From Candidatus Azotimanducaceae bacterium (GTDB lineage Bacteria; Pseudomonadota; Gammaproteobacteria; Pseudomonadales; Azotimanducaceae): DNA of 64,000 nt. The stretch is from NCBI GenBank assembly GCA_965243095.1, contig OZ251530.1, forward strand, positions 1,480,415 through 1,544,414, read 5' to 3'. The translations under genes were made by a program, and so were the position numbers. Positions 20,540-64,000 of the stretch are shown in pieces. The first letter of the stretch is position 1; each line of letters starts with the position of its first letter. The notes beneath the pieces are model-generated. The model was not told the origin of the DNA. It saw nothing but the letters and a program-made list of their open reading frames with translations, and did not search any database.

Positions 20540-22093
20540 TCACACGATGCGGCTGCCCGTCTTGCCCCAGTACTCGTCCTTGAGCAGCCGCTTGTAGAGT
20601 TTGCCGGTGGGCAGGCGCGGCAGTTCGGCGCGGAAGTCCACGCTCTTCGGGCATTTGTAGTGGGCGATGCGCTCGCGGGCGTAGGCGATGATCTCGGCCT
20701 CCAGCGCGGCATCGGCGTGGACGCCTTCGGCGGGCTGCACCACCGCCTTCACTTCCTCGCCCATCTCGTCGTTGGGCACGCCGATGACGGCCACGTCCGC
20801 GACTTTCGGATGCAGCGCCAAGGCGTCCTCGATCTCCTGCGGATAGATGTTCACGCCGCCGGAAATGATCATGAACGTGGCGCGGTCGGTGAGGTAGAGA
20901 TAGCCGTCGTCATCCAGATAGCCGACATCGCCCAAAGCGGTCCAGTTCGGGTGCGCCGGATGCTGCACGTCCTTGGTTTTCTCCGGGTCTTTCAAATACG
21001 CGAACGGCATGGCGGGCAACTCGAAATACACGATGCCCGGTTCGCCGTTCGGCAGCGCGGCGCCGCTCTCGTCGCAGATATGCAGCGTGCCGAGGATGGC
21101 CTTGCCCACCGTGCCCGGGTGTGCGAGCCACTCCTCCGGCCCGCAATGCGTGAAGCCGTTCATCTCCGTGCCGCCGTAGTACTCGTACAGGATCGGCCCC
21201 CACCAGTCGAACATGCGCCGCTTCACCTCCGGCGGGCAGGGCGCGGCGGCGTGAATAGCCACCTTGTGCGAGGAAAGATCGAAGCCCTCGCGTTCGCTCG
21301 CCGGCAGCTTCAGCATGCGCGTGAACATGGTGGGCACCCACTGGCTGTGCGTCACGCGGTGGTCTTCGATGGCTTGCAGCGCATGCGCGGGATCGAAGCG
21401 GCGCAGCATCACCACGGTGCCGCCGAGGGCTTGCACGGCTTGGCTGAAACCGATCGGCGCCGAGTGGTAGAGCGGCGCCGGCGAGAGATACACCGTGTCC
21501 TCGCCGAATCCCCACAGCGTACGCTGCAAGCCGGCCACCGGGCTCGCCTCGCTGTCGATGGAGGTCTCCGGCAGCGGGCGCACGATCCCCTTCGGCCGGC
21601 CGGTGGTGCCGGAACTGTAGAGCATGAACGCGCCAGCGGGCTGCTCGGCAAGCGGCTCGGCGGGATGGGCGGCGAGGGCGTCGTCCAAGTCCGCGTAGAC
21701 GCCTTCGGCGCCGTCCGCCATCAACCAAACGCGGCAACCGGGCGCGAACGCCGGAATGTCCGCCGCAGTGGCCGTCAACGCCTTGGAAGCGATCAACGCC
21801 TGGGACTCCGAGTTGTCCAAGATGTAGCCGGCTTCCTCGGCCGTGAGGTAGCGGTTCACCGTGGTCAGGTAAAGGCCGGAGCGCAACGCCGCCCACACCA
21901 CATCGAAGTAGGCGAGGTTGTTCTCCATGAAGATGGAGACGTGATCGCCCCGCCGCAGCCCGGCGTCCCACAACAGTTGCGCGAGCCGGTTGGAGCGGTC
22001 GTTCAACTCGCCATAGCTCCGCACCGCGCCGGTGGCGGCGTCCACCGCCGCCGGCTTGTCGGGGAATACGGTTGCCCAATGTCCCGGGTACAT
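20540..22093 (-). CDS. acyl-CoA synthetase / AMP-dependent ligase
   Basis: AMP-binding motifs MLYSSGTTGRPKG, YYGGTE, GDVGYLDDDGYLYLTDR and PTGKLYKRLL. The ATG at 22093 (MYPGHWATVFPDKPA) is the proposed start. Confidence 0.9.
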   Translation of the reverse strand: MYPGHWATVFPDKPAAVDAATGAVRSYGELNDRSNRLAQLLWDAGLRRGDHVSIFMENNLAYFDVVWAALRSGLYLTTVNRYLTAEEAGYILDNSESQALIASKALTATAADIPAFAPGCRVWLMADGAEGVYADLDDALAAHPAEPLAEQPAGAFMLYSSGTTGRPKGIVRPLPETSIDSEASPVAGLQRTLWGFGEDTVYLSPAPLYHSAPIGFSQAVQALGGTVVMLRRFDPAHALQAIEDHRVTHSQWVPTMFTRMLKLPASEREGFDLSSHKVAIHAAAPCPPEVKRRMFDWWGPILYEYYGGTEMNGFTHCGPEEWLAHPGTVGKAILGTLHICDESGAALPNGEPGIVYFELPAMPFAYLKDPEKTKDVQHPAHPNWTALGDVGYLDDDGYLYLTDRATFMIISGGVNIYPQEIEDALALHPKVADVAVIGVPNDEMGEEVKAVVQPAEGVHADAALEAEIIAYARERIAHYKCPKSVDFRAELPRLPTGKLYKRLLKDEYWGKTGSRIV

Positions 22094-22296
22094 CGTGTGT
22101 GCAACTCCGTGAAGCGGTGCGCGTGAGGCTAACGAACTCCGCCGCCGATTGCGACACACTTGGCGCACCGTCAGCGGTTGGGGCCAAGCGGAAAAAGCGC
22201 CGCTGGGTCACGCGGCGTGGGTTCGCCGGGGCGGCGTGTATAACCTCCTATGGAGTATGCTCCACCCGTGCAGCCGACCTTGCAGCCATCGCGGGA

Positions 22297-23320
22297 ATGG
22301 CCATTCGACCCATGCGCCAAACACCACGTTCCACCGCTCTGACGACAGGCCAAGTAGTCGAACGCCTGCTGGAGACCGTTGGCGGCCAAATCGTCGCCTG
22401 CAATGTCGTGGCTGGCATCCAGAATCGCCTAGTCGACGCTGCGTGGGCCGCGCAGGTGCTGGCATGGATGGGCACACTCGGTAGCCACGATGACCTTCTC
22501 CGAGCATTAGACGATCTCAGGATGCACCGGCACCCATCAACTGCATCGCCTTCCCACCTGCCCGACGTCAGGCTGCGTGACACCGGCGCTACCGTTCTGT
22601 TCGATGTTGAAGTTTCCCACGTCCTGCCGGCGCGGAATCTGAGGCGGTTGATGTCTGACCACGATAAGCGACGTCTTGCGAGGGAAGGCTTGGCGTTACC
22701 GTGGTCGCAACCGGAGGTTTTTGCGCGCGACGTAGATGGGTGGCAGCGCAAACCCGTCCACGCCCATGGTTCGGATCAATCCCGCAGCCACCCTCGGCCG
22801 ACCACACGACATCGTTTGGTTCACCCGTCGCGCCGCACTCGACGATGCGTTGAACGGTGTGCCACTTGCCGCCCGCGCCCAGCGAACGCGCGACGTGCTG
22901 GGCTTGGTGCATCACCAAGAGGGCGATATACTGGCGGCCATGCACTTCCAACCGCCAACGCTGTCGGCCTGCCCGTCCGCCCGCCCTACGTTTGCGGACG
23001 CCGGCAGCAATGCCCGCTTCAAGGCCTGGCCCGACGACGAGGCTGCTCGCGAGGAGCGCAGTTGGGGGCGCACGGTAGACCTGCACGCTCTCAGTGAGTC
23101 CGCCCCATCAGTGGACGGATGCCCGGAACGCATAGCAAAGTCCATAGACGGCCGTTCGCTCTCCAACGGCACGACCTTCGAGTTCGAACTGCTGGGCGCT
23201 GTTCAAGCGTCCGCCGACCGAGGAAGTGAAGCCGACGCCGCATTCGCTAGGAGGCTATCGGGCGGGCGGACGGTCGCGGAACTCGGCGCCGAGCTGAAGA
23301 CCCTCACAGGAACACACTGA
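22297..23320 (+). pseudogene. unknown protein, apparently frameshifted (gene 1 of a three-gene operon)
   Basis: Protein-like sequence runs in one frame from ATG 22297 (..VVERLLETVGGQIVACNVVAGIQNRLVDAAWAAQVLAWMG..) to about 22740-22800. It then becomes Arg/Pro-rich. The +1 frame opens right after a TAG at 22733 and is protein-like to the TGA at 23320 (..IVWFTRRAALDDALNGVPL..TFEFELLGAV..). Confidence 0.4.
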
Positions 23321-54961: not shown

Positions 54962-55093
54962 GGAGCGGAGGGGTCTCGGAAAGCGAAAGCGTAGTCTAAC
55001 ACGCTGGCTGCTGATGGCGGTTTCGGAGCGCCGCGTTTTCGGCGTGCGCGACAAGCCGCAGTGCCGCGCCCGCAACCGCTCCGCACGGCGCAG

Positions 55094-55495
55094 CTAGCCG
55101 CCGAGGAACGCCTTCAATTTACGCCGTTGTCGCTTATCCGGGCGCCGTGGCGGAGCGACGACGCCGGCGCGAGCCATGCGTCGCGCTGCCGCCGCGGCCT
55201 CGCGTTTGGCCACGGATTCGGGCGCCTCGGTGTACAAAGTCGCGGCCAAGGTGGCGCTGCCGCGGCGCTCGGCGAGGGCCGTCACTACTACGGTTTGCAC
55301 CATCTGGCCGCGGGTCACGCGCAGCTCGTCGCCCACCTTCACCTCTTTGGACGCCTTGCCGCGTACGCCATGCACATGCACCTTGCCGCCGTCGATGGCG
55401 GCCTTGGCGAGGCTGCGGGTCTTGAAGAAGCGGGCCGCCCAAAGCCACTTGTCGAGGCGCACGCCCTCCGCCCCATCCGCCGCCGGCGTGCTCAC
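55094..55495 (-). CDS. hslR: ribosome-associated heat shock protein Hsp15 (S4-domain RNA-binding protein)
   Basis: VRLDKWLWAARFFKTRSLAKAAIDGGKVHVHG. GTG 55495 overlaps the yrfG stop (GTGA). Confidence 0.85.
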   Translation of the reverse strand: MSTPAADGAEGVRLDKWLWAARFFKTRSLAKAAIDGGKVHVHGVRGKASKEVKVGDELRVTRGQMVQTVVVTALAERRGSATLAATLYTEAPESVAKREAAAAARRMARAGVVAPPRRPDKRQRRKLKAFLGG

Positions 55496-56148
55496 GGCAT
55501 GATCTCGCGGAAGTGGCCGATGGCGCGGAACGGGAGGTCGCGGCGTGGGGCGCCGGTGGAGTCCGGTTGCGCCACGCAGAGCAGGTGCCGAACGCCGGCG
55601 CGTTCGGCCGCGGCGAGGACCACGTCGTTGTCGTCCACCAGCAGCGTGCGCGCCGGGTCGTAGGTTTCGCCCAAGCGCTGCGCGAGACCGCGCCAGTAGC
55701 CGTCGTCTTCTTTCGGCGCGCCTACTTCGTGGGCGGAAACGCAGCCGTCCACGGCGTCGAGCAAGCCGATGGCGCGATGCTTCACCGCCACGCTGCGCGG
55801 GTGGGCGTTGGTGGCGAGGAACAGGGCGCGGCGCGAACGCCGCACTGCGACCGTGAAGCTCTCGGCGCCCGGCCGGTAGCGGATGAGGTGCCTCAGCTCT
55901 TCGTGGATGGCGTCGATGTCCAGCCGCGTTTGCCGCGCCCAGTAGTCCAAGCTGTAGAAATCCAAACTCGCCTTGCGGCCGAGCATGTCGCGGTAGAGGC
56001 GGTCGGCCGCTTGCGCCTCGCCGATGCCTTCGCGCTGCGCGAAGCGTTGCACCACCACGACGTTCCACAGGTGGTTGTCGAAGTGCAAGTCGATGAGCGT
56101 GCCGTCCATGTCCAACAACACGGTGTCGATTTCCGCCCAACAGACCAT
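55492..56148 (-). CDS. yrfG: HAD-family GMP/IMP nucleotidase YrfG-like
   Basis: IDTVLLDMDGTLIDLHFDNHLW is close to E. coli YrfG. LATNAHP and LLVDDN are also present. It lies upstream of hslR, as in enterics. Confidence 0.8.
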   Translation of the reverse strand: MVCWAEIDTVLLDMDGTLIDLHFDNHLWNVVVVQRFAQREGIGEAQAADRLYRDMLGRKASLDFYSLDYWARQTRLDIDAIHEELRHLIRYRPGAESFTVAVRRSRRALFLATNAHPRSVAVKHRAIGLLDAVDGCVSAHEVGAPKEDDGYWRGLAQRLGETYDPARTLLVDDNDVVLAAAERAGVRHLLCVAQPDSTGAPRRDLPFRAIGHFREIMP

Positions 56149-56992
56149 GCAGGCAGCCTATCATGCGCCCGTGATCGCCGCTCTATTGGACATCGTTCGC
56201 GCCGCCGGGGAGGAGATCCTCGCGGTGTATCGTGGCAGCGACTTCGCCGTGCGCTCGAAGGCGGACGACTCGCCGCTCACCGAGGCGGATCTGCGCGCCC
56301 ACCGCGTGATCGCGGACGGCCTCAAGGCGCTGCACCCGGTGTTGCCGATCCTCTCCGAGGAGTCCACGCCGCCGCCGTTCGCCGAACGCCAAGGCTGGAC
56401 GCGCTACTGGCTGGTGGATCCGCTCGACGGCACCAAGGAGTTCATCGAGAGGAACGGCGAGTTCACCGTGAACATCGCCCTCATCGAGCACGGCGCGCCG
56501 GTGCTGGGCTTGGTGGGGGTGCCCGCGCAAGGCGTGGTTTTCGTGGGCGATTGCCGAGGCGGCAAGACGGACGCCTATCGTTTGGATGCGGACGGGCGCA
56601 CCACGCTGCGCACCAAACCGATGCGCGGCGACGCGATTCGTGTGGTGGCCAGCCGGCGTCACGGCGGGGAACGCTTGGCGGCCTATTTGGAGACGCTCGG
56701 CGGCCGCTTCCGCGTGTCCAAAGTGTCCGTCGGCAGCTCGCTCAAGCTGTGCATCTTGGCGGAAGGCGGGGCGGACCTCTATCCCCGCCTAGGCCCGACG
56801 TCCGAGTGGGACATCGCCGCGGCGCACGCCGTGCTGCGGGCTGCCGGCGGCGATCTGATGCGTTGCGATGGCGGCGCGATGCGTTACAACGCCAAGGAGT
56901 CCCTGCTCAATCCGCACTTCCTCGCCATCGCGGATCCCGCCTTTCCGTGGCGACAGCTTTTGCCACCAACGCCGCCGACGCAACCCGCGTAG
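56147..56992 (+). CDS. cysQ: 3'(2'),5'-bisphosphate nucleotidase
   Basis: SKADDSPLTEADLRAH, PILSEES, WLVDPLDGTKEFI and SSLKLC are inositol-monophosphatase-fold CysQ motifs. The start is ATG 56147 or GTG 56171. Confidence 0.85.
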   Translation: MQAAYHAPVIAALLDIVRAAGEEILAVYRGSDFAVRSKADDSPLTEADLRAHRVIADGLKALHPVLPILSEESTPPPFAERQGWTRYWLVDPLDGTKEFIERNGEFTVNIALIEHGAPVLGLVGVPAQGVVFVGDCRGGKTDAYRLDADGRTTLRTKPMRGDAIRVVASRRHGGERLAAYLETLGGRFRVSKVSVGSSLKLCILAEGGADLYPRLGPTSEWDIAAAHAVLRAAGGDLMRCDGGAMRYNAKESLLNPHFLAIADPAFPWRQLLPPTPPTQPA

Positions 56993-57008
56993 CTGGCCGC
57001 CCCGCCGC

Positions 57009-60000
57009 TTACGGCCTTGCGGTGGCGGAGAGATTGGCGAGGTGCCCGGCGGGGCTCTCCATCAAGCTCATGACGGTGAGCGGGTTGTCGAAGGAAACGG
57101 TCAGGCGCCACTGGCCCTCGCCATCGCCGAGCGCGCCTTCGAGACTCTCGTCGCCGGCTTCGAGTTGCGCCGCGGTGAGAGTCAGCGCCTCGCCGGCCGG
57201 CACCATGACGGTTAGCGGCCCCGCCTCCGCGCCAGCGTCGTCCACGCCGTTGATCGTCGCCGTCGCCGCATCCGCGCCGTTGTTCGCTAGGCGCAGGAGG
57301 CTCCCTTGTTGTTCGTTCGACGCCGGGTGGAACACCGCCACGCGCGCGGCGCCATCCGCAGCTGGTGCCACTTCGTGCAGACTGGCCACGAAGCCGTCCG
57401 CGTGGCGTACATAGGCCGCCGCGGCGAGTGAGAGGGTGCCGCTTCGCAGTTCCAAGCGCCACGCGCCCTTCGTCGGCGCGCCGACGCCGGACGCCAAGCC
57501 CTTCTTGGCGTTGCCGTTCTCCAAGTCGTCCGAGTTGAAGTGCATTGTCGCCCGCGCCGCAAGCTGTAGCTGGATCGGGCCGGCGCGGACGCCGGCGTCG
57601 TCCACCGCCGAAATCTCCACCATGCCTTCGGCCGCGGTCATGTTCGCCACGCGGGCGAAGCCCTCGCGGCCGGCCGGGTTCATCGCCGACGGGAACAGTG
57701 GCAGGCGCAGCGTCTCGCCCGCGGCCGCGCGCAGCGGCGGCGGCGACAGGTTCGAGAGGTGTCCGCTCGGGCTCGCCAGCCACGAGGACGCCGACAGCGG
57801 CCACGGCGCGTGTACGCGCAAGCGCCACTTGCCGGCGCCGTTGCCGAGTCCCGCGCCGGCGGCGCCCCGCGACCGCTCCAACTGCCCCGCCGTCAATGCC
57901 AGCGTCGCGCCCGCCGGCGCCTCGAAGCCGGGCGCGAAGCGCCCGCGGCCGGCGTCGTCCACGCCCCACACGGACATCCTCGCGGAAGCGGGGACCGGGT
58001 TGAAGACGCGCAGCGAACTGCGTTGGGCGCGGTTGCTCGCCGGGTTGAAGAGGAACGCGGAAAGCGAGTCGCCCGCGCGCGGCAACGCGCCGTGCAACGG
58101 GGTGAGGAATCCGTCCGGCGTGCGGACGTAGGCCAGAACCTCGATGTCGAGCGGGGACCACAGATGCAGCCGCCAGCTGCCCGCCATCGGCGGGCCGACG
58201 CCGTCCATCAGCCCCATCTCGGCGTTGCCGTTCTCCAAGTCCGCCGAGTCGAAGCTCGCCGCCGCGCCGGCGGCCAGCGAAAGCGCCGCCGGGCCGAACG
58301 TCTGCCCGGCCTCGTCCACGGCCTCCACCAGCACCGCGCCATCCATGTCCGATCGGTTCAGCACGCGCACCACGCCGCTCCGCCCGGAAGCGTCCGCCGC
58401 GGAGGGAAACAACGGCACGGCCCAGCCGAACACCACCGTGGCGCCGGCATCGCGCAGCGCCGGAATGTGCGTGTCCAGCGCCGCCGCGCCCAGCGGATTG
58501 CCGCGCAGGCCCAGCGCGCCGCCATCCGCAAGCCCCGGGTGCCCGGCCAGCCCCGACACGTCCGCCAGCCGGTTCCAGCCCAGGCGCAGCCACGACAGCC
58601 GCGTCAGCCCGCGCAGCGGCGAAGCGTCCGCGATGCGGTTGCGCGACAGGTCCAGCCGCGTCAGCGCCCGCAATCCCGCCAGCGCCGAGACGTCGGCCAC
58701 CATGTTGTTCGGCAGCCACAGCCGTCGCAGCTTCGAGAGCCCCGCCAGCGGCGAGATGTCCGCGATGCGGTTGTCGCCCAGATGCAGGTAGATCAGCGAG
58801 TTCAAGCCCGACAGCGCCGAGATGTCCGACAGGCCGTTGCCGTCCAGCCACAGTTGCTCCAAGGACGACAGGCCCGACAGCGGCGACAGGTCGCGCACCG
58901 CCGTGCCGCTCAGCAGCAGCGTCCGCAGGCTGGTCAGCCCCGCCAGCGGCGAGAGGTCCAGCGGCTCGCCTCCGGCCGCCGGCGCGTTGCCGCCCAAGGA
59001 CAGCGACTCCAGCGACACCGCCTGCTCCAGACCCGCCAGCGACGAGATCCCCGCGCCGTCCAGGTTCAGCGTCCGCGCCGCCTGAATGTCCAATATCCTC
59101 AGCGTTCCCGGCTGCTTGCCCAGCGCCCGTTCCACGGCGGCCGTCAGCGCCGGGTCCGGCAGCGAGAACAGCCCGCCAACCACCGGTATGGTTGTCCATG
59201 TCGTCAGGTCGATGCCGCCCGCGTGCGCGGCGGTCAGCACCCGCACCGCGTAGTCTTGGGTGGCGGGCAGTTCGCCCCCGGACAAGGCGATCGTCAGGGT
59301 GGCCGTCGTGCCGCCGGCGACGGCGCCCGCCACGTTGGCGACGGACAGGCCCGGCGTCGCCGGCACCAGCGCGAAGCTGTCCGCGGCGACGCCGCTTGCG
59401 AAGGTGGTTCCGGTCAACGAGACGGCGATCGTCGCGCCGTCCAGGTTCCGCTCGGTGAGGGAAGAGGGATTCACGGACGAGATGGCCACACCGCTGCCCA
59501 GAACCCTGTGGCGCGGGTAGTCCGTGGGCAGGTCTCGGATCGCGTGGTGGTCGTCGACATGGGGGAGATTGGGGTCTTGAAGCTGTCCACCGTGCAACCT
59601 GCCGATGCTCAACCCGTCGGCGTCGGCGTCGTCCTGCCCAACCGTATAGGTGAAGGGTATGGTCCAGCGGTAGGCATTGAAGTTGTCCGGGCAGCTCATC
59701 TGCCTGGTGGCCCCGCCAATCAGCAACTCCAGCCTAAGAGTGTTGGTAGGCCAATGGGTGGCTGAACAGGTTCGGTTGTCGATGACACGTATGCTGAAAG
59801 TCAGGGTGACCGTGATGGTCTCGCCCTGCACGAAGGTGTCGCCGTTCGCAGGGTCGCTCACCGTCATGGTGGCGATGCGGGGGTTGCCTCCGTGGTGGGC
59901 CGCGGCCTGCCCCGCGCCGAGCGCCGCAAGCGCGGCCAAGAGCAAGGCGGCGAGGCGCGGAACCGCGCCATCGCGGCGCCCGCGGATGGCGCCCGCAGCG

Positions 60001-60069
60001 CAGGTCAGCAACATGGCAAGCACCGAGCGCCGCGCACACGCGGGGGGGGGGGGGGGTGGAATCACGCAT
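57009..60069 (-). CDS. large secreted LRR protein, paralog 1; SD-proximal ATG is out of frame with the body at the sequenced C15 tract length (candidate phase-OFF)
   Basis: GGAGGAG (60077-60083), 7 nt, then ATG 60069 encoding MRDST, then C15. The long ORF (track 57009..60107, TTG) is in the -1 register relative to this ATG. With C14 or C17 it would read MRDSTPPPPACARRSVLAMLLTCAAG... The body has Ig-like N-terminal domains, ~9 internalin-type 22-aa LRRs, and four ~115-aa C-terminal modules. An in-frame ATG at 60014 downstream of the tract is an alternative start. Confidence 0.75.
60042..60056 (-). repeat. homopolymeric tract, 15 G on + strand (C15 in the coding sense of paralog 1)
   Basis: Counted directly: c + 9 g (60041-60050), then 6 g (60051-60056). 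Consistent with the IPPPPPPA translation in the track ORF. Confidence 0.95.
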
Positions 60070-60109
60070 ACGCTTTCTCCTCCGTCATGCCCAGCAACAC
60101 CCAGCAAAC

Positions 60110-60132
60110 GCGCTCAGCACGGTGCTGAGCGC
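60110..60132. promoter_or_regulatory. 11-1-11 perfect palindrome in the paralog-1 upstream region (operator-like or hairpin)
   Basis: GCGCTCAGCAC-G-GTGCTGAGCGC, located between the conserved GGTTGACC..GGGTAATATG block and the SD of paralog 1. A degenerate copy lies at 63418-63440 upstream of paralog 2. Confidence 0.35.
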
Positions 60133-60185
60133 AATGGCTTGCCCGGCATATTACCCCTTTTCGGTCAACCGTGCGGCCGCAACGA

Positions 60186-60264
60186 CCTTGGGAGCGCGAG
60201 CGTCTCGCCGCGCTCTCGTTCACATGTATTTCACCGAGAGTGCGGGAGGCGCCTGCGCTCCCAG
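60186..60264. repeat. second REP/BIME-like inverted repeat pair, same family as 35976-36054
   Basis: CCTTGGGAGCGCGAGCGTCTCGCC (60186-60209) and the inverted copy at 60241-60264 (reverse complement CCTGGGAGCGCAGGCGCCTCCCGCA). The pair begins 7 nt downstream of the paralog-2 stop (60271). Confidence 0.5.
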
Positions 60265-60270
60265 GACGGC

Positions 60271-63200
60271 TTACGGTCTTGCGGTGGCGGAGAGGTTGGA
60301 GAGGTGGCCGGCGGGGCTTTCCAGCAGGCTCATGACCGTGAGCGGGTTGTCGAACGCCACCGTCAAGCGCCACTTGCCGTCGCCGTCGCCCAGCGCGCCT
60401 TCCAAGCCTTCGCCGCCGTCTTCGAGTTGCGCGGCGGTGAGCGTCAGCGCTTCGCCTGCGGGCACGGTGGCGGTTAACGGTTCCGACGTCGCGCCGGCGT
60501 CGTCCACCCCGGTGATGGTCGCCATCGCCGGCTCGTCGCCGTTGTTCGCCAAGCGCAGGAGGCTGCGCTGCCCGTCGCTGGACGCCGGGTGGAACACGGC
60601 CACCCGCGCCGCGCCGTCGGCAACCGGGGCCGTCTCGTGCAGGCTGGTCACGAAGCCGTCGGCGTGGCGGGTGTAGGTTGCGGCGGCGAGTGTGAGGGTG
60701 CCGCTTTGCAGTTCCAGCCGCCACGCGCCCTTCGTCGGCGCGCCAACGCCGGACGCCAAGCCCTTCGCGGCGTTGCCGTTCTCCAAATCCTCCGAGTTGA
60801 AGTGCATCGTCGCCCGCGCCGCAAGCTGGAGCTGGATCGGGCCGGCGCGGACGCCGGCGTCGTCCACCGCCGAAATCTCTACCATGCCTTCCGCCGCGGT
60901 CATGTTCGCCACGCGGGCGAAGCCCTCGCGGCCGGCCGGGTTCATCGCCGACGGGAACATTGGCAGCCGCAGCGTCTCGTCCGCGGCCGCGCGCAGCGGC
61001 GGAGCCGACAGGTTCGAGAGATGCCCGCTCGGGCTTTCCAGCCACGAGGACGCCGACAGCGGCCAGGTTGCGTGTACGCGCAGGCGCCACTTGCCGGCGC
61101 CGTTGCCGAGACCCGCGCCGACGGCGCCCCGCGACCGCTCCAACTGCCCCGCCGTCAACGCCAGCGGGGCGTTCGCGGGCGCCTCAAAGCCGGGCGCGAA
61201 GCGCCCGCGGCCGGCGTCGTCCACGCCCCACACCGACATCCTCGTGGAAGCGGGGACCGGGTTGAAGACGCGCAGCGAACTGCGTTGGGCGCGGTTGCTC
61301 GCCGGGTTGAAGAGGAACGCCGAAAGCGAGTCGCCCGCGCGCGGCAACTCGCCGTGCGCCGGGGTCAGGAATCCGTCCGGTGTGCGGACGTAGGCCAGAA
61401 CCTCGATGTCCAGCGCCGACCACACATGCAGCCGCCAGCTGCCCGCCATCGGCGGGCCGACGCCGTCCGTCAGCCCCATCTCGGCGTTGCCGTTCTCCAA
61501 GTCCGCCGAGTCGAACTGCGCCGCCGCGCCGGCGGCCAGCGGAAGCGACACCGGGCCGACTGTTCGGCCGGCCTCGTCCACGGCCTCCATCAACACCGCG
61601 CCGTCCATGTCCGTGCGGTTCAAGACGCGCACGACGCCGCCGCGCCCGGATGCGTCCGCGGCCGAGGGGAACAGCGGCACGGCCCAGCCGAACACCACCG
61701 CCGCGCCGGCCTCGCGCAGCGCCGGAATGTGCGTGTCCAGCGCCGCCGCGCCCAGCGGATTCCCGCGCAGCCCCAACGCGCCGCCGTCCGCGAGCCCGCG
61801 GTGGCCGGCCAACCCCGACACGTCCGCCAGCCGATTCCAGCCGAGGCGCAGCCACGAGAGCCGCGTCAACCCGCGCAGCGGCGAGGCGTCGGCGACGCGG
61901 TTGCGCGACAGGTCCAGCCGCGTCAGCGCTCGCAGCCCCGCCAGCGCCGAGACGTCGGCCACCATGTTGCCGGGCAGCCACAGCCGCCGCAGCTTCGAGA
62001 GCCCCGCCAGCGCCGAGAGGTCCGCGATGCGGTTGTCCCCCAGATGCAGGTAGATCAGCGAGCCAAGCGCCGACAGCGTCGAGATGTCCGACAGGCCGTT
62101 GCCGTCCAGCCACAACTGTTCCAAGGACGACAGGCCCGACAGCGGCGACAGGTCGCGCACCGCCGTGCCGCTCAGCAGCAGCGTCCGCAGGCTGGTCAGC
62201 CCCGCCAGCGGCGAGAGGTCCAGCGGCTCGCCTCCGGCCGCCGGCGCGTTGCCGCCCAGGGACAGCGATTCCAGCGACACCGCCTCCTCCAGACCCGCCA
62301 GCGACGAGATCCCCGCGCCGTCCAGGTTCAGCGTCCGCAACGCCGGCATGTCCACTAGCCTCAGCGTTCCCGGCTGCTTGCCCAGCGCCCGCTCCACGGC
62401 GGCCGTCAGCGCCGGCTCCCCCAGCGAGAACGTGCCGCCAACCACCGGTATGGTCGTCCACGTCGTCAGGTCGATGCCGCCGGCGTGCGCGGCGGTCGGC
62501 ACCCGCACCGCGAAGGCGTAGCTGGCGGGCAGTTCGCCGCCGGCGTGGGCGAGCGTCAGCGTGGCCGTCGTGCCGCCGGAGGCGGCGCCGGCCACGTTGG
62601 CGATGGACAGGCCCGGAACCGGCGGCACCAGCGCGAAGCTGGCCGCGGTGACGCCGCTTGCGAAGGTGGTGTCCGTCAACGAGAGGGCGATCGTCGCGCC
62701 GTCCACGTTCCGCTCGGTGAGGGAAGAGGGATTCACGGCCGAGATGGCGATGGCGCTGCCGGCGACCTTGTGGTTCGGCGAGTTCTGGATACGCGGTAGG
62801 CTGCCGTAGTCTACCGGGTTCCCGGAGCCGCCGTTATCGGCGTTGGGGAAAATAGTTCCACCGTGCAACCTGCTGATGCTCAACCCGTCGGCGTCGGCGT
62901 CATCCTGCCCAACCGTATAAGTAAAGGGTATGTTCGAGCGGACCCAATTGCCGTTGGTCTGGCATCTCATTTGCCTGGTGGCCCCGCCAATTAGCAACTC
63001 CAACTGCACAATGCCGAGGCCGGACCAGCTCGTTTGACACGTGTTGTTGTCCCTGAGAGGTTCACTGAAGTGCAAGGTGGCCGTGATGGTCTCGCCCTGC
63101 ACGAAGGTGTCGCCCGTCGCCGGGTTGTTCAGCGTGATGCGGGTTATGGTGGGCGGGATCAATTGGGCCGCGGCTTGCCCCGCGCCGAGCGCGGTAAGCG

Positions 63201-63387
63201 CGGCCAAGAGCAAGGCGGCGAGGCGCGGAACCGCGCCATCGCGGCACCCGCGGATGGCGCCCGCAGCGCAGGTCAGCAGCGCGGCAAACGACCAGTGCCG
63301 ACGGCGGAACTCGATGCGATGGCGCAACCGATCAGACATGGGATCGGCCCCGCCGCCGTGGGGGGGGGGGGGGGTGGAATCGTCCAT
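60271..63387 (-). CDS. large secreted LRR protein, paralog 2; SD-proximal ATG in frame through the C15 tract (candidate phase-ON)
   Basis: GGAGGAG (63396-63402), 8 nt, then ATG 63387 encoding MDDSTPPPPHGGGADPMSDRL..., in frame with the whole 1038-aa body. It has the same architecture as paralog 1. The LRR and C-terminal modules are >90% identical by eye, while the N-terminal Ig-like region is divergent. Confidence 0.85.
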   Translation of the reverse strand: MDDSTPPPPHGGGADPMSDRLRHRIEFRRRHWSFAALLTCAAGAIRGCRDGAVPRLAALLLAALTALGAGQAAAQLIPPTITRITLNNPATGDTFVQGETITATLHFSEPLRDNNTCQTSWSGLGIVQLELLIGGATRQMRCQTNGNWVRSNIPFTYTVGQDDADADGLSISRLHGGTIFPNADNGGSGNPVDYGSLPRIQNSPNHKVAGSAIAISAVNPSSLTERNVDGATIALSLTDTTFASGVTAASFALVPPVPGLSIANVAGAASGGTTATLTLAHAGGELPASYAFAVRVPTAAHAGGIDLTTWTTIPVVGGTFSLGEPALTAAVERALGKQPGTLRLVDMPALRTLNLDGAGISSLAGLEEAVSLESLSLGGNAPAAGGEPLDLSPLAGLTSLRTLLLSGTAVRDLSPLSGLSSLEQLWLDGNGLSDISTLSALGSLIYLHLGDNRIADLSALAGLSKLRRLWLPGNMVADVSALAGLRALTRLDLSRNRVADASPLRGLTRLSWLRLGWNRLADVSGLAGHRGLADGGALGLRGNPLGAAALDTHIPALREAGAAVVFGWAVPLFPSAADASGRGGVVRVLNRTDMDGAVLMEAVDEAGRTVGPVSLPLAAGAAAQFDSADLENGNAEMGLTDGVGPPMAGSWRLHVWSALDIEVLAYVRTPDGFLTPAHGELPRAGDSLSAFLFNPASNRAQRSSLRVFNPVPASTRMSVWGVDDAGRGRFAPGFEAPANAPLALTAGQLERSRGAVGAGLGNGAGKWRLRVHATWPLSASSWLESPSGHLSNLSAPPLRAAADETLRLPMFPSAMNPAGREGFARVANMTAAEGMVEISAVDDAGVRAGPIQLQLAARATMHFNSEDLENGNAAKGLASGVGAPTKGAWRLELQSGTLTLAAATYTRHADGFVTSLHETAPVADGAARVAVFHPASSDGQRSLLRLANNGDEPAMATITGVDDAGATSEPLTATVPAGEALTLTAAQLEDGGEGLEGALGDGDGKWRLTVAFDNPLTVMSLLESPAGHLSNLSATARP
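63360..63374 (-). repeat. homopolymeric tract, 15 G on + strand (C15 in the coding sense of paralog 2)
   Basis: Counted directly: g at 63360, 10 g (63361-63370), then 4 g (63371-63374). Consistent with STPPPPH in the ORF translation. Confidence 0.95.
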
Positions 63388-63484
63388 TACGCTTTCTCCT
63401 CCATCATGCCCAGCAACGCGCCCAGCGCGTGGCTGAGCGCAAGCCCTACCCGCCATATTACCCTTTTTTCGGGTCAACCGCACG

Positions 63485-64000
63485 CTAGCGCAGCACCAGG
63501 CGGGCGTTGCGTGGCTGTACCGGGCGGTTGTTCGGGCCGCGCAGCGCATCCGCAAAGGCCGCCATCTGCTCGCTTGATGCCGATGTCGGCGCCTTCATCA
63601 CCAGCCAGATCACGCCTTCCGTGCAGGGCGGCGTGGTGAGGGAGCCGTTGAAGCGGTAGTAGTCGCGGGCTTCGGGCAGCAGGGCCGCCGGATCGATGGG
63701 CGCGGCGAAGACGTGCTCTGCGCCGGTGCCCGGCATGTGCCGCCACGACTGCGCCAAAGCGGCGTTGTGTTCGCCGGCCGCGAACATCACCGCGATCACG
63801 GCCAGACCGCCGTCGGGGCCGACGTGGACGAAGTGGACTTCCATCGGGAACTCGACGCCTTCGATGCGGTTCTCGCTCGGCGCGTGGAAGTGGAATTGCA
63901 GCAGGCGATAGACGCGCCCGTCGAGGGTGATCTCGCTGCCGTCGCCGCTTTCGACCTGAACCGTGTGGCCGTTGTTGACGATCGCCGTGCCGCTCCGGGC
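63485..64000 (-). CDS. alpha-class carbonic anhydrase (partial; 5' end beyond window)
   Basis: Manual translation to the window edge gives ..NNGHTVQVESG..YRLLQFHFHAPSENRIEGVEFPMEVHFVH..YYRFNGSLTTPPCTEGVIWLV..NNRPVQPRNARLV, the canonical alpha-CA zinc-ligand and active-site motifs. Confidence 0.85.
   Translation of the reverse strand, partial: ARSGTAIVNNGHTVQVESGDGSEITLDGRVYRLLQFHFHAPSENRIEGVEFPMEVHFVHVGPDGGLAVIAVMFAAGEHNAALAQSWRHMPGTGAEHVFAAPIDPAALLPEARDYYRFNGSLTTPPCTEGVIWLVMKAPTSASSEQMAAFADALRGPNNRPVQPRNARLVLR

What the first reader, a model, noticed from the sequence alone, without database searches (positions are those of the whole stretch)
60014..60083. Paralog 1: C15 tract places the strong SD-ATG out of frame with the 1000-aa body (phase-OFF configuration)
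On the coding strand the sequence reads GGAGGAG-AAAGCGT-ATG CGT GAT TCC A-C15-GCG TGT GCG... From ATG 60069 the C15 tract gives MRDSTPPPPRVCAALG..., an Arg/Pro-rich 111-aa off-frame product (the track ORF 59734..60069). With C14 or C17 the same ATG reads MRDSTPPPPACARRSVLAMLLTCAAG... into the full LRR protein; I worked this through by hand. The only in-frame starts as sequenced are a TTG at 60107 without an SD and an ATG at 60014 downstream of the tract. Paralog 2 has GCG at the position matching ATG 60014 (..FAALLTCAAG). Homopolymer tracts of this length just after a start codon are the textbook slipped-strand phase-variation switch (established for Neisseria, Haemophilus, Campylobacter and Bordetella). 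A 15-mer G/C run is not expected by chance even in GC-rich DNA.
Basis: partly seen in the sequence, partly recalled or inferred. Interest (0 to 1): 0.8.

Follow-up and report, generated by a model that had tools for sequence, protein, structure and literature searches.

The report
Poly-C frame switch on LRR genes
A run of 15 C's just after the start codon of a large internalin-like surface-protein gene, found on many copies of this gene family in an uncultured sponge-associated bacterium, varies from 10 to 30 C's between related genomes and decides whether the start codon is in frame, which is the signature of stochastic on/off switching of host-interaction proteins.

Summary
On the minus strand, GGAGGAG-N7-ATG(60069)-CGT GAT TCC A-C15(60056..60042) precedes a 1001-aa LRR gene. 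ATG 60069 is out of frame with that gene and gives a 111-aa product; C14 or C17 would restore the frame.

Paralog 2 carries the same leader and also C15 (63374..63360), but is in frame. These are the only G/C runs of 8 or more in the 64 kb.

In about 230 kb from this clade, all 11 G/C runs of 10 or more sit at the 5' end of LRR-family genes. At the orthologous carbonic-anhydrase-adjacent locus the tract is C15, C13, C23 or C30 in four assemblies, and the frame alternates between in and out. A second locus has C21 versus C28. The relatives come from Agelas clathrodes sponge tissue.

My reading is a homopolymer slipped-strand translational switch carried on a cassette shared by a multigene family of secreted, internalin-like proteins.

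- An in-frame GTG at 60065, 11 nt from the same SD, was missed.
- Weak-SD starts are common in this clade.
- A 1-nt consensus error would flip the state, so "OFF" for paralog 1 is provisional.

Reversible switching within a population was not testable. The mechanism is a known kind; the host context is new.

The parts
60148..60168 (-). Start of the duplicated 5' cassette of paralog 1: TTGACC (60168..60163), G, A4, GGGG, TAATAT (60153..60148). It looks like a promoter, but the spacer is only 9 nt.
   Evidence: The consensus sigma-70 scan finds nothing here, so promoter function is inferred only.
60110..60132 (-). Leader hairpin GCGCTCAGCAC-CGT-GTGCTGAGCGC upstream of the SD.
   Evidence: The fold of the whole leader is not better than shuffles (z -0.89). 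No Rfam family matches.
60077..60083 (-). Shine-Dalgarno GGAGGAG, 7 nt before ATG 60069.
   Evidence: Duplex dG with the anti-SD is -9.5 kcal/mol. An SD (GGAGGAG, GAGGAG, AAGGAAG or GGAG) precedes the leader ATG in all 11 leaders read as DNA.
60067..60069 (-). Leader start codon ATG, out of frame with the body at C15.
60063..60065 (-). Alternative GTG start, 11 nt from the SD, in frame with the body at C15.
60042..60056 (-). C15 homopolymer (G15 on the + strand), the putative slipped-strand switch of paralog 1.
59734..60069 (-). 111-aa off-frame product read from ATG 60069 at C15. It overlaps ATG 60014 and about 280 nt of the body.
60012..60014 (-). Internal in-frame ATG, the start of the publicly annotated 1001-aa protein P0121. 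Weak SD (-3.0).
60005..60007 (-). TGA inside the conserved CTGCTGACC (Leu-Leu-Thr codons). It is the stop of the leader ORF in the third frame (C13/C16/C19), 5 nt after ATG 60014.
   Evidence: The same TGA ends the leader ORF in L005a, L126, L127 and L131.
59898..60014 (-). Signal-peptide region MLLTCAAGAIRGRRDGAVPRLAALLLAALAALGAGQAAA. It has a short first hydrophobic patch, then a canonical n-h-c region with AxA.
   Evidence: hydropathy, AlphaFold helix 20-39.
57009..60014 (-). Body of paralog 1 (1001 aa): variable N-terminal beta domain, low-confidence linker, internalin-like LRR solenoid, four C-terminal beta-sandwich repeats.
63455..63477 (-). Paralog 2 cassette start: TTGACC (63477..63472), CG, A6, GGG, TAATAT (63460..63455). 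It begins 8 nt after the carbonic anhydrase stop codon.
63396..63402 (-). Paralog 2 Shine-Dalgarno GGAGGAG.
   Evidence: dG -9.3.
63360..63374 (-). Paralog 2 C15 homopolymer, in frame with ATG 63387.
60271..63387 (-). Paralog 2 ORF (1038 aa, MDDSTPPPPHGGGADPMSDRLRH...), identical to database protein P0001.

Best explanation
The C15 run is a hypermutable homopolymer inside the translated 5' leader of an internalin-like LRR gene.

The cassette. It consists of a promoter-like box, a strong SD, an ATG, 2-6 codons, poly-C and a partial signal peptide. It is shared by many paralogs in at least three LRR subfamilies of an uncultured gammaproteobacterium whose close relatives live in Agelas sponges.

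The switch. Slipped-strand mispairing during replication adds or removes C's (inferred from established knowledge of homopolymer mutability). This moves ribosomes that start at the SD-ATG among three frames:
1. Fusion to the body, giving the full pre-protein with a poly-Pro N-terminal extension (ON).
2. A 13-43-codon leader peptide. In our subfamily it ends at a conserved TGA just past the internal ATG. In another subfamily it ends in ATGA overlaps. Weak coupled expression is possible.
3. A leader ORF of more than 100 codons that runs over the internal start (OFF, or lowest expression).

The window. As sequenced, paralog 2 is in state 1 and paralog 1 is in state 3 for the ATG. For paralog 1 a low-efficiency in-frame GTG at 60065 and a weak-SD ATG at 60014 are possible leaks.

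The consequence. Each paralog would switch independently, giving a population a mixed repertoire of secreted or surface LRR proteins whose N-terminal domains differ.

Shown: anatomy, frames, family-wide distribution, length polymorphism between samples.
Inferred: mutation mechanism, reversibility, expression consequences, host-interaction role.
For: Anatomy and frames.

Strength of the SD: -9.5 and -9.3 kcal/mol, against a background mean of -2.8.

Specificity: these are the only G/C runs of 8 or more in the 64 kb. In about 230 kb of DNA from this clade, all 11 G/C runs of 10 or more lie at the 5' end of LRR-family genes. Their lengths are 13, 14, 15, 15, 21, 21, 23, 23, 25, 28 and 30.

Orthologous comparison, with identical flanks starting at the carbonic-anhydrase stop codon: window C15 (in frame), L127 C13 (out), L001b C23, L126 C30 (out). 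At the PSD-adjacent locus, L005a has C21 and L133 has C28. L126, L127 and L133 come from short-read (SRR) assemblies of different sponge individuals, so the differences are far larger than a plus-or-minus 1 error.

In-frame relatives read MDDSTP(4-8)...SVLAMLLTCAAG: P0010, P0122, P0009, P0249. This confirms that the C14-type reading of paralog 1 is used elsewhere.

SD plus ATG directly before the tract is kept in divergent leaders: ATGGACGATTCCA, ATGCACATGA, ATGAAGATCATTA, ATGAAAAT.

The product has a signal peptide and an LRR solenoid closest to Listeria internalins (InlB 1d0b: TM 0.87, rmsd 1.2 A). The paralogs differ mainly in the N-terminal domain (51-79% identity, against 85-100% elsewhere).
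Against: - No reads were available, so heterogeneity within a population and reversibility are untested.
- Only 4 of the 11 tracts read as DNA are in frame, about the one-third expected if frame were irrelevant. That fits phase variation with most copies OFF, but it fits a non-coding tract equally well.
- Weak or absent SDs are common in this clade (48% of 63 called genes weaker than -4 kcal/mol; gyrA itself is -3.0). The downstream ATGs could therefore be genuine constitutive starts.
- The peptide between the tract and MSDRLRH is read in different frames in orthologs (HGGGADP versus TAAGPIP), so its amino-acid sequence is not conserved.
- The ON form has an unusually long (about 40-65 aa) region before the hydrophobic core of the signal peptide.
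- Homopolymers of 13-30 are error-prone on every platform, so the individual states are uncertain.
Confidence: 0.65

Rival explanations
1. The tract lies in a 5' leader, or upstream ORF, that is not part of the protein. The real start is the downstream ATG (60014 in paralog 1, MSDRLRH in paralog 2). Tract length drifts neutrally, or at most tunes expression gradually (uORF length, poly-Pro stalling, mRNA stability), without an ON/OFF frame switch.
For: - The public annotation starts paralog 1 at ATG 60014 (P0121).
- Many homologs are called at MLLTCAAG or MSDRLRH.
- Only about one third of the tracts are in frame.
- Weak SDs are common in this clade.
- In other subfamilies a canonical signal peptide starts right at the downstream ATG (MTGRS..., MSPLCRLG...).
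- The post-tract peptide sequence is not conserved between orthologs.
Against: - A top-decile SD plus an ATG directly before the tract is retained in all 11 leaders, including divergent ones. Ribosomes should therefore load there, and frame then determines whether they cross, stop at, or fuse with the downstream start.
- Out-of-frame leader ORFs end at a conserved TGA or in ATGA overlaps with the next ATG, which looks like coupling rather than neutrality.
- A neutral 13-30-nt homopolymer found exclusively in front of one gene family would be hard to explain.
Confidence: 0.2
2. Assembly or consensus artefact. The true tract in paralog 1 is C14 (or C17) and the gene is simply intact and ON. The apparent OFF state is a homopolymer miscall in a single-contig, probably long-read, assembly.
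For: - The source is a 4,807,997-bp single contig, which suggests long reads (inference).
- Both tracts in the window are exactly C15, which could reflect a consensus or basecaller bias.
- The closest homolog, P0122, is in frame.
Against: - This would not remove the phenomenon. Lengths of 13, 28 and 30 in short-read assemblies and 21-25 in another assembly show real variation.
- Out-of-frame states occur in 7 of the 11 loci, across independent assemblies.
Confidence: 0.1
3. Paralog 1 is a decaying duplicate. A 50-nt deletion after the tract, relative to paralog 2, destroyed the frame, and the gene is on its way to becoming a pseudogene.
For: The alignment shows a 50-nt gap right after the tract in paralog 1 compared with paralog 2.
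Against: - The short post-tract form is a separate, widespread type that is in frame in other genes (L005b/P0122, P0010, P0249).
- The 1001-aa body is uninterrupted and 85-100% identical to paralog 2 over the LRR and C-terminal domains.
Confidence: 0.03

Closest known systems
Homopolymeric poly-G/C contingency loci with the tract in the 5' coding region (Campylobacter jejuni poly-G genes, Neisseria lgt/pgl genes, Haemophilus, Helicobacter pylori fucT). General features from my own knowledge and from the reviews PMC11868660 and PMC3315296.
   Same: A G/C homopolymer a few codons after the start codon. A change of 1 nt shifts the frame. Lengths differ between strains. The targets are surface or host-interaction functions. 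There are several independent loci per genome.
   Different: The tracts here are much longer (10-30, against typically 7-13). The genome is 68% GC. The organism is an uncultured sponge-associated bacterium, not a pathogen. One conserved cassette serves a whole paralogous family. Switching has not been measured.
Neisseria opa family (CTCTT repeats in the signal-peptide coding region of about 11 paralogs).
   Same: A multigene family of host-cell-binding proteins. Each copy carries its own repeat inside the leader or signal-peptide coding region. Independent ON/OFF states give combinatorial repertoires. The paralogs differ in exposed variable regions.
   Different: The repeat is a pentamer rather than a homopolymer. 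The products are beta-barrel outer-membrane proteins rather than LRR proteins. Experimental proof exists for opa and does not exist here.
Promoter-located poly-C/G switches (Bordetella pertussis fim2/fim3 C-stretch, Neisseria opc/porA, Treponema pallidum tpr poly-G). From my own knowledge.
   Same: Long C/G runs of about 12-15 nt upstream of members of a surface-protein family.
   Different: Those tracts lie between promoter elements and act on transcription. Here the tract is 3' of the SD-ATG. A separate variable poly-A between TTGACC and TAATAT may be of that type, but this is unproven.
Streptococcus gallolyticus pil1 leader-peptide switch (GCAGA repeats in a leader ORF controlling downstream expression; PMC3894217, title and abstract only).
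   Same: The repeat sits in a short upstream leader ORF whose reading frame or length controls expression of the downstream surface-structure genes.
   Different: That system works through a transcription terminator (attenuation-like). No terminator was found here. Fusion or coupling is the likely route.
Listeria internalins, and sponge-symbiont 'eukaryote-like proteins' with LRR/ANK repeats.
   Same: The LRR solenoid superposes on InlB, InlH and InlC2 (TM up to 0.87, 32-36% identity). There is a large LRR family in a bacterium related to sponge-tissue MAGs.
   Different: No internalin cap plus IR plus LPXTG/GW architecture. Instead there are unique N-terminal beta domains and four C-terminal beta-sandwich repeats with no Pfam match. 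No report of repeat-mediated switching of such proteins was found in the searched library.

Membership tests
SSR-mediated (homopolymer) translational phase-variable locus | Simple-sequence repeat long enough to be hypermutable (G/C run of about 8 or more) within or just after the start of the ORF. | tested here: met
   C15 at 60056..60042, 13 nt after the A of ATG 60069. 0 of 100 shuffles reach the observed count.
SSR-mediated (homopolymer) translational phase-variable locus | Changes of repeat number move the start codon in and out of frame with the full-length product. | tested here: met
   In silico: C14/C17 give 1019/1020 aa, C15 gives 111 aa, C16 gives 21 aa. Caveat: GTG 60065 is in frame at C15.
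SSR-mediated (homopolymer) translational phase-variable locus | Repeat length is polymorphic at the same locus among strains or samples, with both ON and OFF lengths. | tested here: met
   CA-adjacent ortholog: C15 in, C13 out, C23 in, C30 out. PSD-adjacent ortholog: C21 and C28.
SSR-mediated (homopolymer) translational phase-variable locus | Reversible, high-frequency switching within a clonal population, with a matching change in protein expression. | not testable with these tools
   No reads, cultures or expression data. The source genome is not even in the contig index.
SSR-mediated (homopolymer) translational phase-variable locus | The product is a surface-exposed or secreted determinant of interaction with host, phage or environment (typical rather than strictly defining). 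| tested here: inconclusive
   Signal-peptide-like N-terminus and internalin-like LRR fold. Localisation and ligand are unknown.
Promoter-spacer homopolymer switch (Bordetella fim / Neisseria opc type) | The tract lies between promoter elements or activator sites, so its length alters transcription. | tested here: not met
   The tract is downstream of the SD and ATG in all 11 leaders. No consensus promoter overlaps it.
Listeria-type internalin | 22-residue LRR solenoid. | tested here: met
   Pfam LRR_4 5.5e-28 and LRR_8. TRF finds a 66-nt period. Foldseek top hits are InlA/B/H/C2/F, E down to 8e-18.
Listeria-type internalin | N-terminal helical cap, Ig-like inter-repeat domain and LPXTG or GW cell-wall anchoring. 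| tested here: not met
   The C-terminus ends ...ESPAGHLANLSATARP with no LPXTG or GW modules. The flanking domains are different beta domains with no Pfam hit. So the protein is 'internalin-like LRR', not an internalin.
Sponge-symbiont eukaryote-like protein (ELP) | Eukaryote-type repeat protein (LRR/ANK/TPR) expanded in a sponge-associated bacterium. | tested here: inconclusive
   At least 13 paralogs on the 4.8-Mb source contig. Relatives with 96-97% identical GyrA, and orthologous loci, come from Agelas clathrodes tissue metagenomes. The isolation source of the window's own genome was not recoverable.

The most novel reading that the evidence does not exclude
The two tracts in the window belong to a genome-wide 'phasome'. 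A portable cassette (promoter-like box, SD, ATG, poly-C, partial signal peptide) has been placed in front of at least three subfamilies of internalin-like LRR proteins in a sponge symbiont. Each copy would be a three-state translational switch: fusion, ATGA- or TGA-coupled leader, or occluding long leader ORF. This would be the first multi-locus SSR contingency system controlling eukaryote-like proteins in a marine invertebrate symbiont. It would let the symbiont population vary the ligands it shows to sponge cells or phages.
Probability: 0.5. Interest if true: 0.75.

Novelty: new member of a known kind. Interest (0 to 1): 0.6.

Why it matters
A recent review says that genomes with many phase-variable loci appear restricted to pathogens. 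It notes that database bias may explain this, and that surveys across other lineages are needed (PMC11868660, section 8).

Here an uncultured gammaproteobacterium, whose close relatives come from Agelas sponge tissue, carries long and highly polymorphic poly-C tracts on many internalin-like LRR genes. These are the class of 'eukaryote-like proteins' thought to mediate recognition or evasion of phagocytosis in sponges (my own knowledge).

If the tracts switch, symbiont populations would hedge their bets on host- or phage-facing ligands. That gives a directly testable handle, tract-length distributions in existing sponge metagenome reads, on how such symbioses are maintained.

It is also a practical warning for annotation. 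Start codons and 'pseudogene' calls for this family depend on an error-prone homopolymer.

Tried and rejected
- Genome-contig scan with the 21-nt leader pattern: 3 chance hits in unrelated MAGs, none from this clade.
- Metagenome-contig scan with GGAGGAGAAA-N(8,36)-C10: 120 loci, all unrelated on re-screening. The pattern was too permissive, and JGI data seem to lack this clade.
- Proteins of the source genome (P0001, P0010) are not in the contig index, so no other paralog of the same genome could be read as DNA.
- Retrieval of orthologous loci through gyrA: the region upstream of gyrA varies between strains. L128 and L129 lack LRR genes, and the L130 contig breaks inside one.
- N-terminal 161-aa protein query: only one hit, P0249.
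- RNA-element ideas: no Rfam family. The leader folds are no better than shuffles. There are no consensus promoters or terminators.
- Taxonomy: the named relatives are only 'MAG: Gammaproteobacteria bacterium' at about 75% GyrA identity. Cluster look-up gave no names. ERZ26050434 was not found in the supplement I searched.
- Considered and set aside: a G-quadruplex or i-motif role for G15/C15, and EF-P-dependent poly-proline stalling as the primary function. Neither is testable here, and neither explains the period-3 anatomy.

Full report
**1. The observation**

On the minus strand the sequence reads ...GGGCATGAC GGAGGAG AAAGCGT ATG CGT GAT TCC A C15 GCGTGTGCGCGGCGCTCGGTGCTTGCC ATG TTG CTG ACC.... 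The coordinates are:
- SD: 60083..60077
- ATG: 60069..60067
- tract: 60056..60042
- internal ATG: 60014..60012

The ORF table lists 59734..60069(-), 111 aa, from the ATG, and the long frame 57009..60107(-).

A simulation of tract lengths gives, from ATG 60069:

| Tract length | Product from ATG 60069 |
|---|---|
| C14, C17 | 1019 and 1020 aa (MRDSTPPPPACARRSVLAMLLTCAAG...) |
| C12, C15, C18 | 110-112 aa |
| C13, C16, C19 | 20-22 aa, ending at TGA 60007..60005 |

The two tracts are the only G/C runs of 8 or more in the 64 kb. The shuffles never approach the observed count.

One point needs correcting. The in-frame start-type codons also include GTG 60065..60063, GTG 60023 and TTG 60011. GTG 60065 lies 4 nt after the ATG and 11 nt from the same SD. 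At C15 it reads straight into the body.

**2. Paralog 2 and the cassette**

Paralog 2 (60271..63387, minus strand) has the same leader and also a C15 (63374..63360). It is in frame, reading MDDSTPPPPHGGGADPMSDRLRH..., and it is identical to database protein P0001.

The two copies align from CGGTTGACC, about 100 nt upstream of the ATG. Paralog 1 lacks 50 nt right after the tract.

The bodies are mosaic. The N-terminal domain is 51-79% identical, and the LRR and C-terminal parts are 85-100% identical.

The gene order in this part of the window is: alpha-type carbonic anhydrase, paralog 2, paralog 1, inositol monophosphatase (opposite strand), HAD hydrolase, S4/Hsp15, gyrA, serC-like aminotransferase.

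**3. What the protein is**

- Pfam finds only LRR families (LRR_4 5.5e-28).
- An AlphaFold model built from a 44-sequence alignment has mean pLDDT 79 and pTM 0.69. It shows a helix at residues 20-39 (the hydrophobic core of the signal peptide), an N-terminal beta domain, a low-confidence linker, a confident LRR solenoid (about residues 290-525), and four confident beta-sandwich repeats (530-1000).
- Foldseek against the PDB is dominated by Listeria internalins (InlA E 8e-18; InlB LRR 1d0b TM 0.87, rmsd 1.2 A, 35% identity).
- There is no LPXTG or GW anchor.

So this is a secreted or surface internalin-like LRR protein, not an internalin.

**4. The family and the organism**

The homology search shows a very large family, with at least 13 members on the 4,807,997-bp source contig. 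There are many more on two contigs of ERZ26050434 (1.37 + 3.37 Mb = 4.74 Mb), whose GyrA is 97% identical to the window's.

Named relatives are only 'MAG: Gammaproteobacteria bacterium' at about 75% GyrA identity.

Contigs labelled PANK22-1 are re-assemblies of PRJNA555077 (Pankey et al. 2022). SAMN12291529, SAMN12290620 and SAMN12290621 are Agelas clathrodes tissue from Saint Croix and Grand Cayman, sequenced as SRR runs (PMC13083261 supplement). The clade is therefore sponge-associated. The window's own isolation source could not be recovered.

**5. Comparative test of the tract**

I read eleven leaders as DNA.

| Leader | Tract | State from the SD-ATG |
|---|---|---|
| Window P1 | C15 | out of frame, 111 aa |
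| Window P2 | C15 | in frame |
| L001a | C23 | in frame |
| L001b | C23 | in frame |
| L005a | C21 | out, 25 aa, ends at TGA in CTGCTGACC |
| L005b | C25 | in frame, P0122 MDDSTP8RARRSVLAMLLTCAAG |
| L126 | C30 | out, 43 aa |
| L127 | C13 | out, 37 aa |
| L133 | C28 | out, 148 aa |
| L131 (another subfamily) | C14 | out, 34 aa, same TGA |
| L132 (Calx-beta subfamily) | C21 | out, 13-aa leader ending in an ATGA overlap |

In L132 the ATGA overlap leads into a 6-codon mini-ORF that itself ends in an ATGA overlap with the main start.

P0249, known only as a protein, implies about C10, in frame.

Four of these leaders are the same locus, with flanks identical from the carbonic-anhydrase stop codon. 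Their tracts are C15, C13, C23 and C30, and the frame alternates. L005a and L133 are the same PSD-adjacent locus, with C21 versus C28.

In about 230 kb of DNA from this clade (GC 0.66-0.70), every G/C run of 10 or more is one of these.

Differences of up to 17 nt, including in short-read assemblies, cannot be consensus noise.

**6. Is the tract translated?**

For:
- The SD is strong: -9.5 and -9.3 kcal/mol, reached by 1.9% of random positions and by about 11% of called genes.
- An SD plus an ATG directly before the tract survives in leaders that otherwise differ (ATGGACGATTCCA, ATGCACATGA, ATGAAGATCATTA, ATGAAAAT).
- In-frame relatives show the predicted poly-Pro N-termini.
- Out-of-frame leader ORFs end at a conserved TGA 5 nt after the internal ATG, or in ATGA overlaps. 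These are the classical layouts for translational coupling (established knowledge).

Against:
- Only 4 of 11 tracts are in frame, about one third.
- Weak SDs are common here: median -4.1, 48% weaker than -4, gyrA -3.0.
- The post-tract peptide is read in different frames in orthologs (HGGGADP versus TAAGPIP).
- In sister subfamilies a canonical signal peptide begins at the downstream ATG.
- The segment ALLTCAAGA(SAQ) is the real signal-peptide end in the P0036 subfamily. The N-terminus of paralogs 1 and 2 therefore looks like the cassette, with its partial signal peptide, fused in front of a second and complete signal peptide.

**7. Mechanism**

My preferred mechanism, at confidence about 0.65, is slipped-strand length change of the poly-C. 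This moves ribosomes that load at the SD-ATG among three outcomes:
- fusion to the body (ON);
- a short leader ending beside the internal start (possibly low, coupled expression);
- a long leader ORF overlapping the internal start (OFF, or lowest expression).

As sequenced, paralog 2 is in the first state and paralog 1 is in the last. For paralog 1 there are two potential leaks, GTG 60065 and ATG 60014.

Every frame of the tract encodes poly-Pro. Longer ON tracts may therefore also slow translation in an EF-P-dependent way. This is an inference from established knowledge and was not tested.

No RNA family, special fold, consensus promoter or terminator was found in the leaders.

**8. Rivals**

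- A non-coding or uORF tract without frame-dependent ON/OFF switching (0.2).
- A consensus miscall, so that paralog 1 is really C14 and ON (0.1). This changes the state, not the phenomenon.
- A decaying pseudogene (0.03). This is contradicted by the intact body and by in-frame genes that have the same short post-tract form.

**9. Comparison with known systems, and novelty**

The anatomy matches homopolymer contingency loci of Campylobacter, Neisseria, Haemophilus and Helicobacter. As a family-wide switch in the leader of host-binding paralogs, it matches Neisseria opa.

It is not a promoter-spacer switch of the Bordetella fim type, because the tract is 3' of the ATG.

Four library searches that combined sponge or sponge-symbiont terms with phase-variation or repeat terms returned no paper about sponge symbionts. 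A 2025 review notes that multi-locus phase-variable genomes appear restricted to pathogens, possibly through database bias.

I therefore class this as a new member of a known kind, in an unusual biological setting, with unusually long tracts and a shared cassette.

**10. Verdict**

Its interpretation is partly supported. Hypermutable frame control is well supported by comparison between samples. The specific 'OFF' call for paralog 1, and reversible switching, remain unproven.

Interest: 0.6.

Noticed in passing
window 60158..60161 (A4) and 63464..63469 (A6), minus strand; L126 2300..2310 (A11); L001 and L005 leaders (A5-A6): A second variable homopolymer lies in the cassette: a poly-A between TTGACC and TAATAT/TAATGT. 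With A4-A6 the two hexamers are only 9-11 nt apart. With A11 (L126) the spacing is 16 nt, which is canonical for sigma-70. This could be a second, transcriptional length switch, or simply drift.
   Followed up: partly
L132 9946..10004 (ERZ26050434 contig_1): In a Calx-beta/LRR subfamily, a 17-nt tandem duplication (GCGTCCGGCATGACGGG, two copies) after a C21 tract creates a relay. A 13-aa leader ORF ends in an ATGA overlap with a 6-codon mini-ORF (MTGRPA). That mini-ORF ends in a second ATGA overlap with the main start (MTGRSRLA...).
   Followed up: partly
L001 1768..2748, L005 8833..9750, L131 2306..3394 and 21829..22875: Genes with the PF04754 domain (Transposase_31, YhgA/Rpn-like) sit immediately upstream of several LRR genes. 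The DNA between them and the LRR leader is nearly identical in L001a and L005b. This suggests that a unit of Rpn-like gene plus cassette plus LRR gene has been duplicated or moved.
   Followed up: no
window 57009..58420 (-), residues about 530-1000 of paralog 1: Four C-terminal beta-sandwich repeats (pattern A-B-A-B, about 115 aa each) have no Pfam match but very confident AlphaFold models (pLDDT above 90) and many invariant residues across 44 homologs. In some relatives (P0056, P0058, P0076) this module comes right after the signal peptide. Its function is unknown.
   Followed up: partly
window 55075..64000, compared with L126, L128, L129, L130: The region upstream of gyrA varies between strains. 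It holds two LRR genes in the window, one (split) in L126, and none in L128 and L129, where an AAA/DUF4276 pair or uvrC is found instead. Short-read contigs tend to break inside LRR genes (L130).
   Followed up: partly
window 63488..64000 (-), L001 6327..7031, L126 1535..2284, L127 658..1362: A eukaryotic-type (alpha) carbonic anhydrase is conserved directly upstream of the paralog-2 locus in all four assemblies. In L001, LRR genes flank it on both sides.
   Followed up: no
window 59470..59900 (-), compared with 62790..63160 (-): Divergence between the tandem paralogs is concentrated in the first domain after the signal peptide (51-79% DNA identity). A stretch in the LRR region is 100% identical over 100 nt. 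This pattern suggests gene conversion of the body together with diversification of the N-terminal domain.
   Followed up: partly
window 60190..60262 (-): The intergenic region between the paralog 2 stop codon and the paralog 1 cassette contains GC-rich hairpins. The only hit is a weak, sub-threshold Rfam match (mir-2450, 23.9 bits against a gathering score of 59, E 0.25), which is almost certainly chance. It might serve as a terminator or a REP-like element.
   Followed up: no
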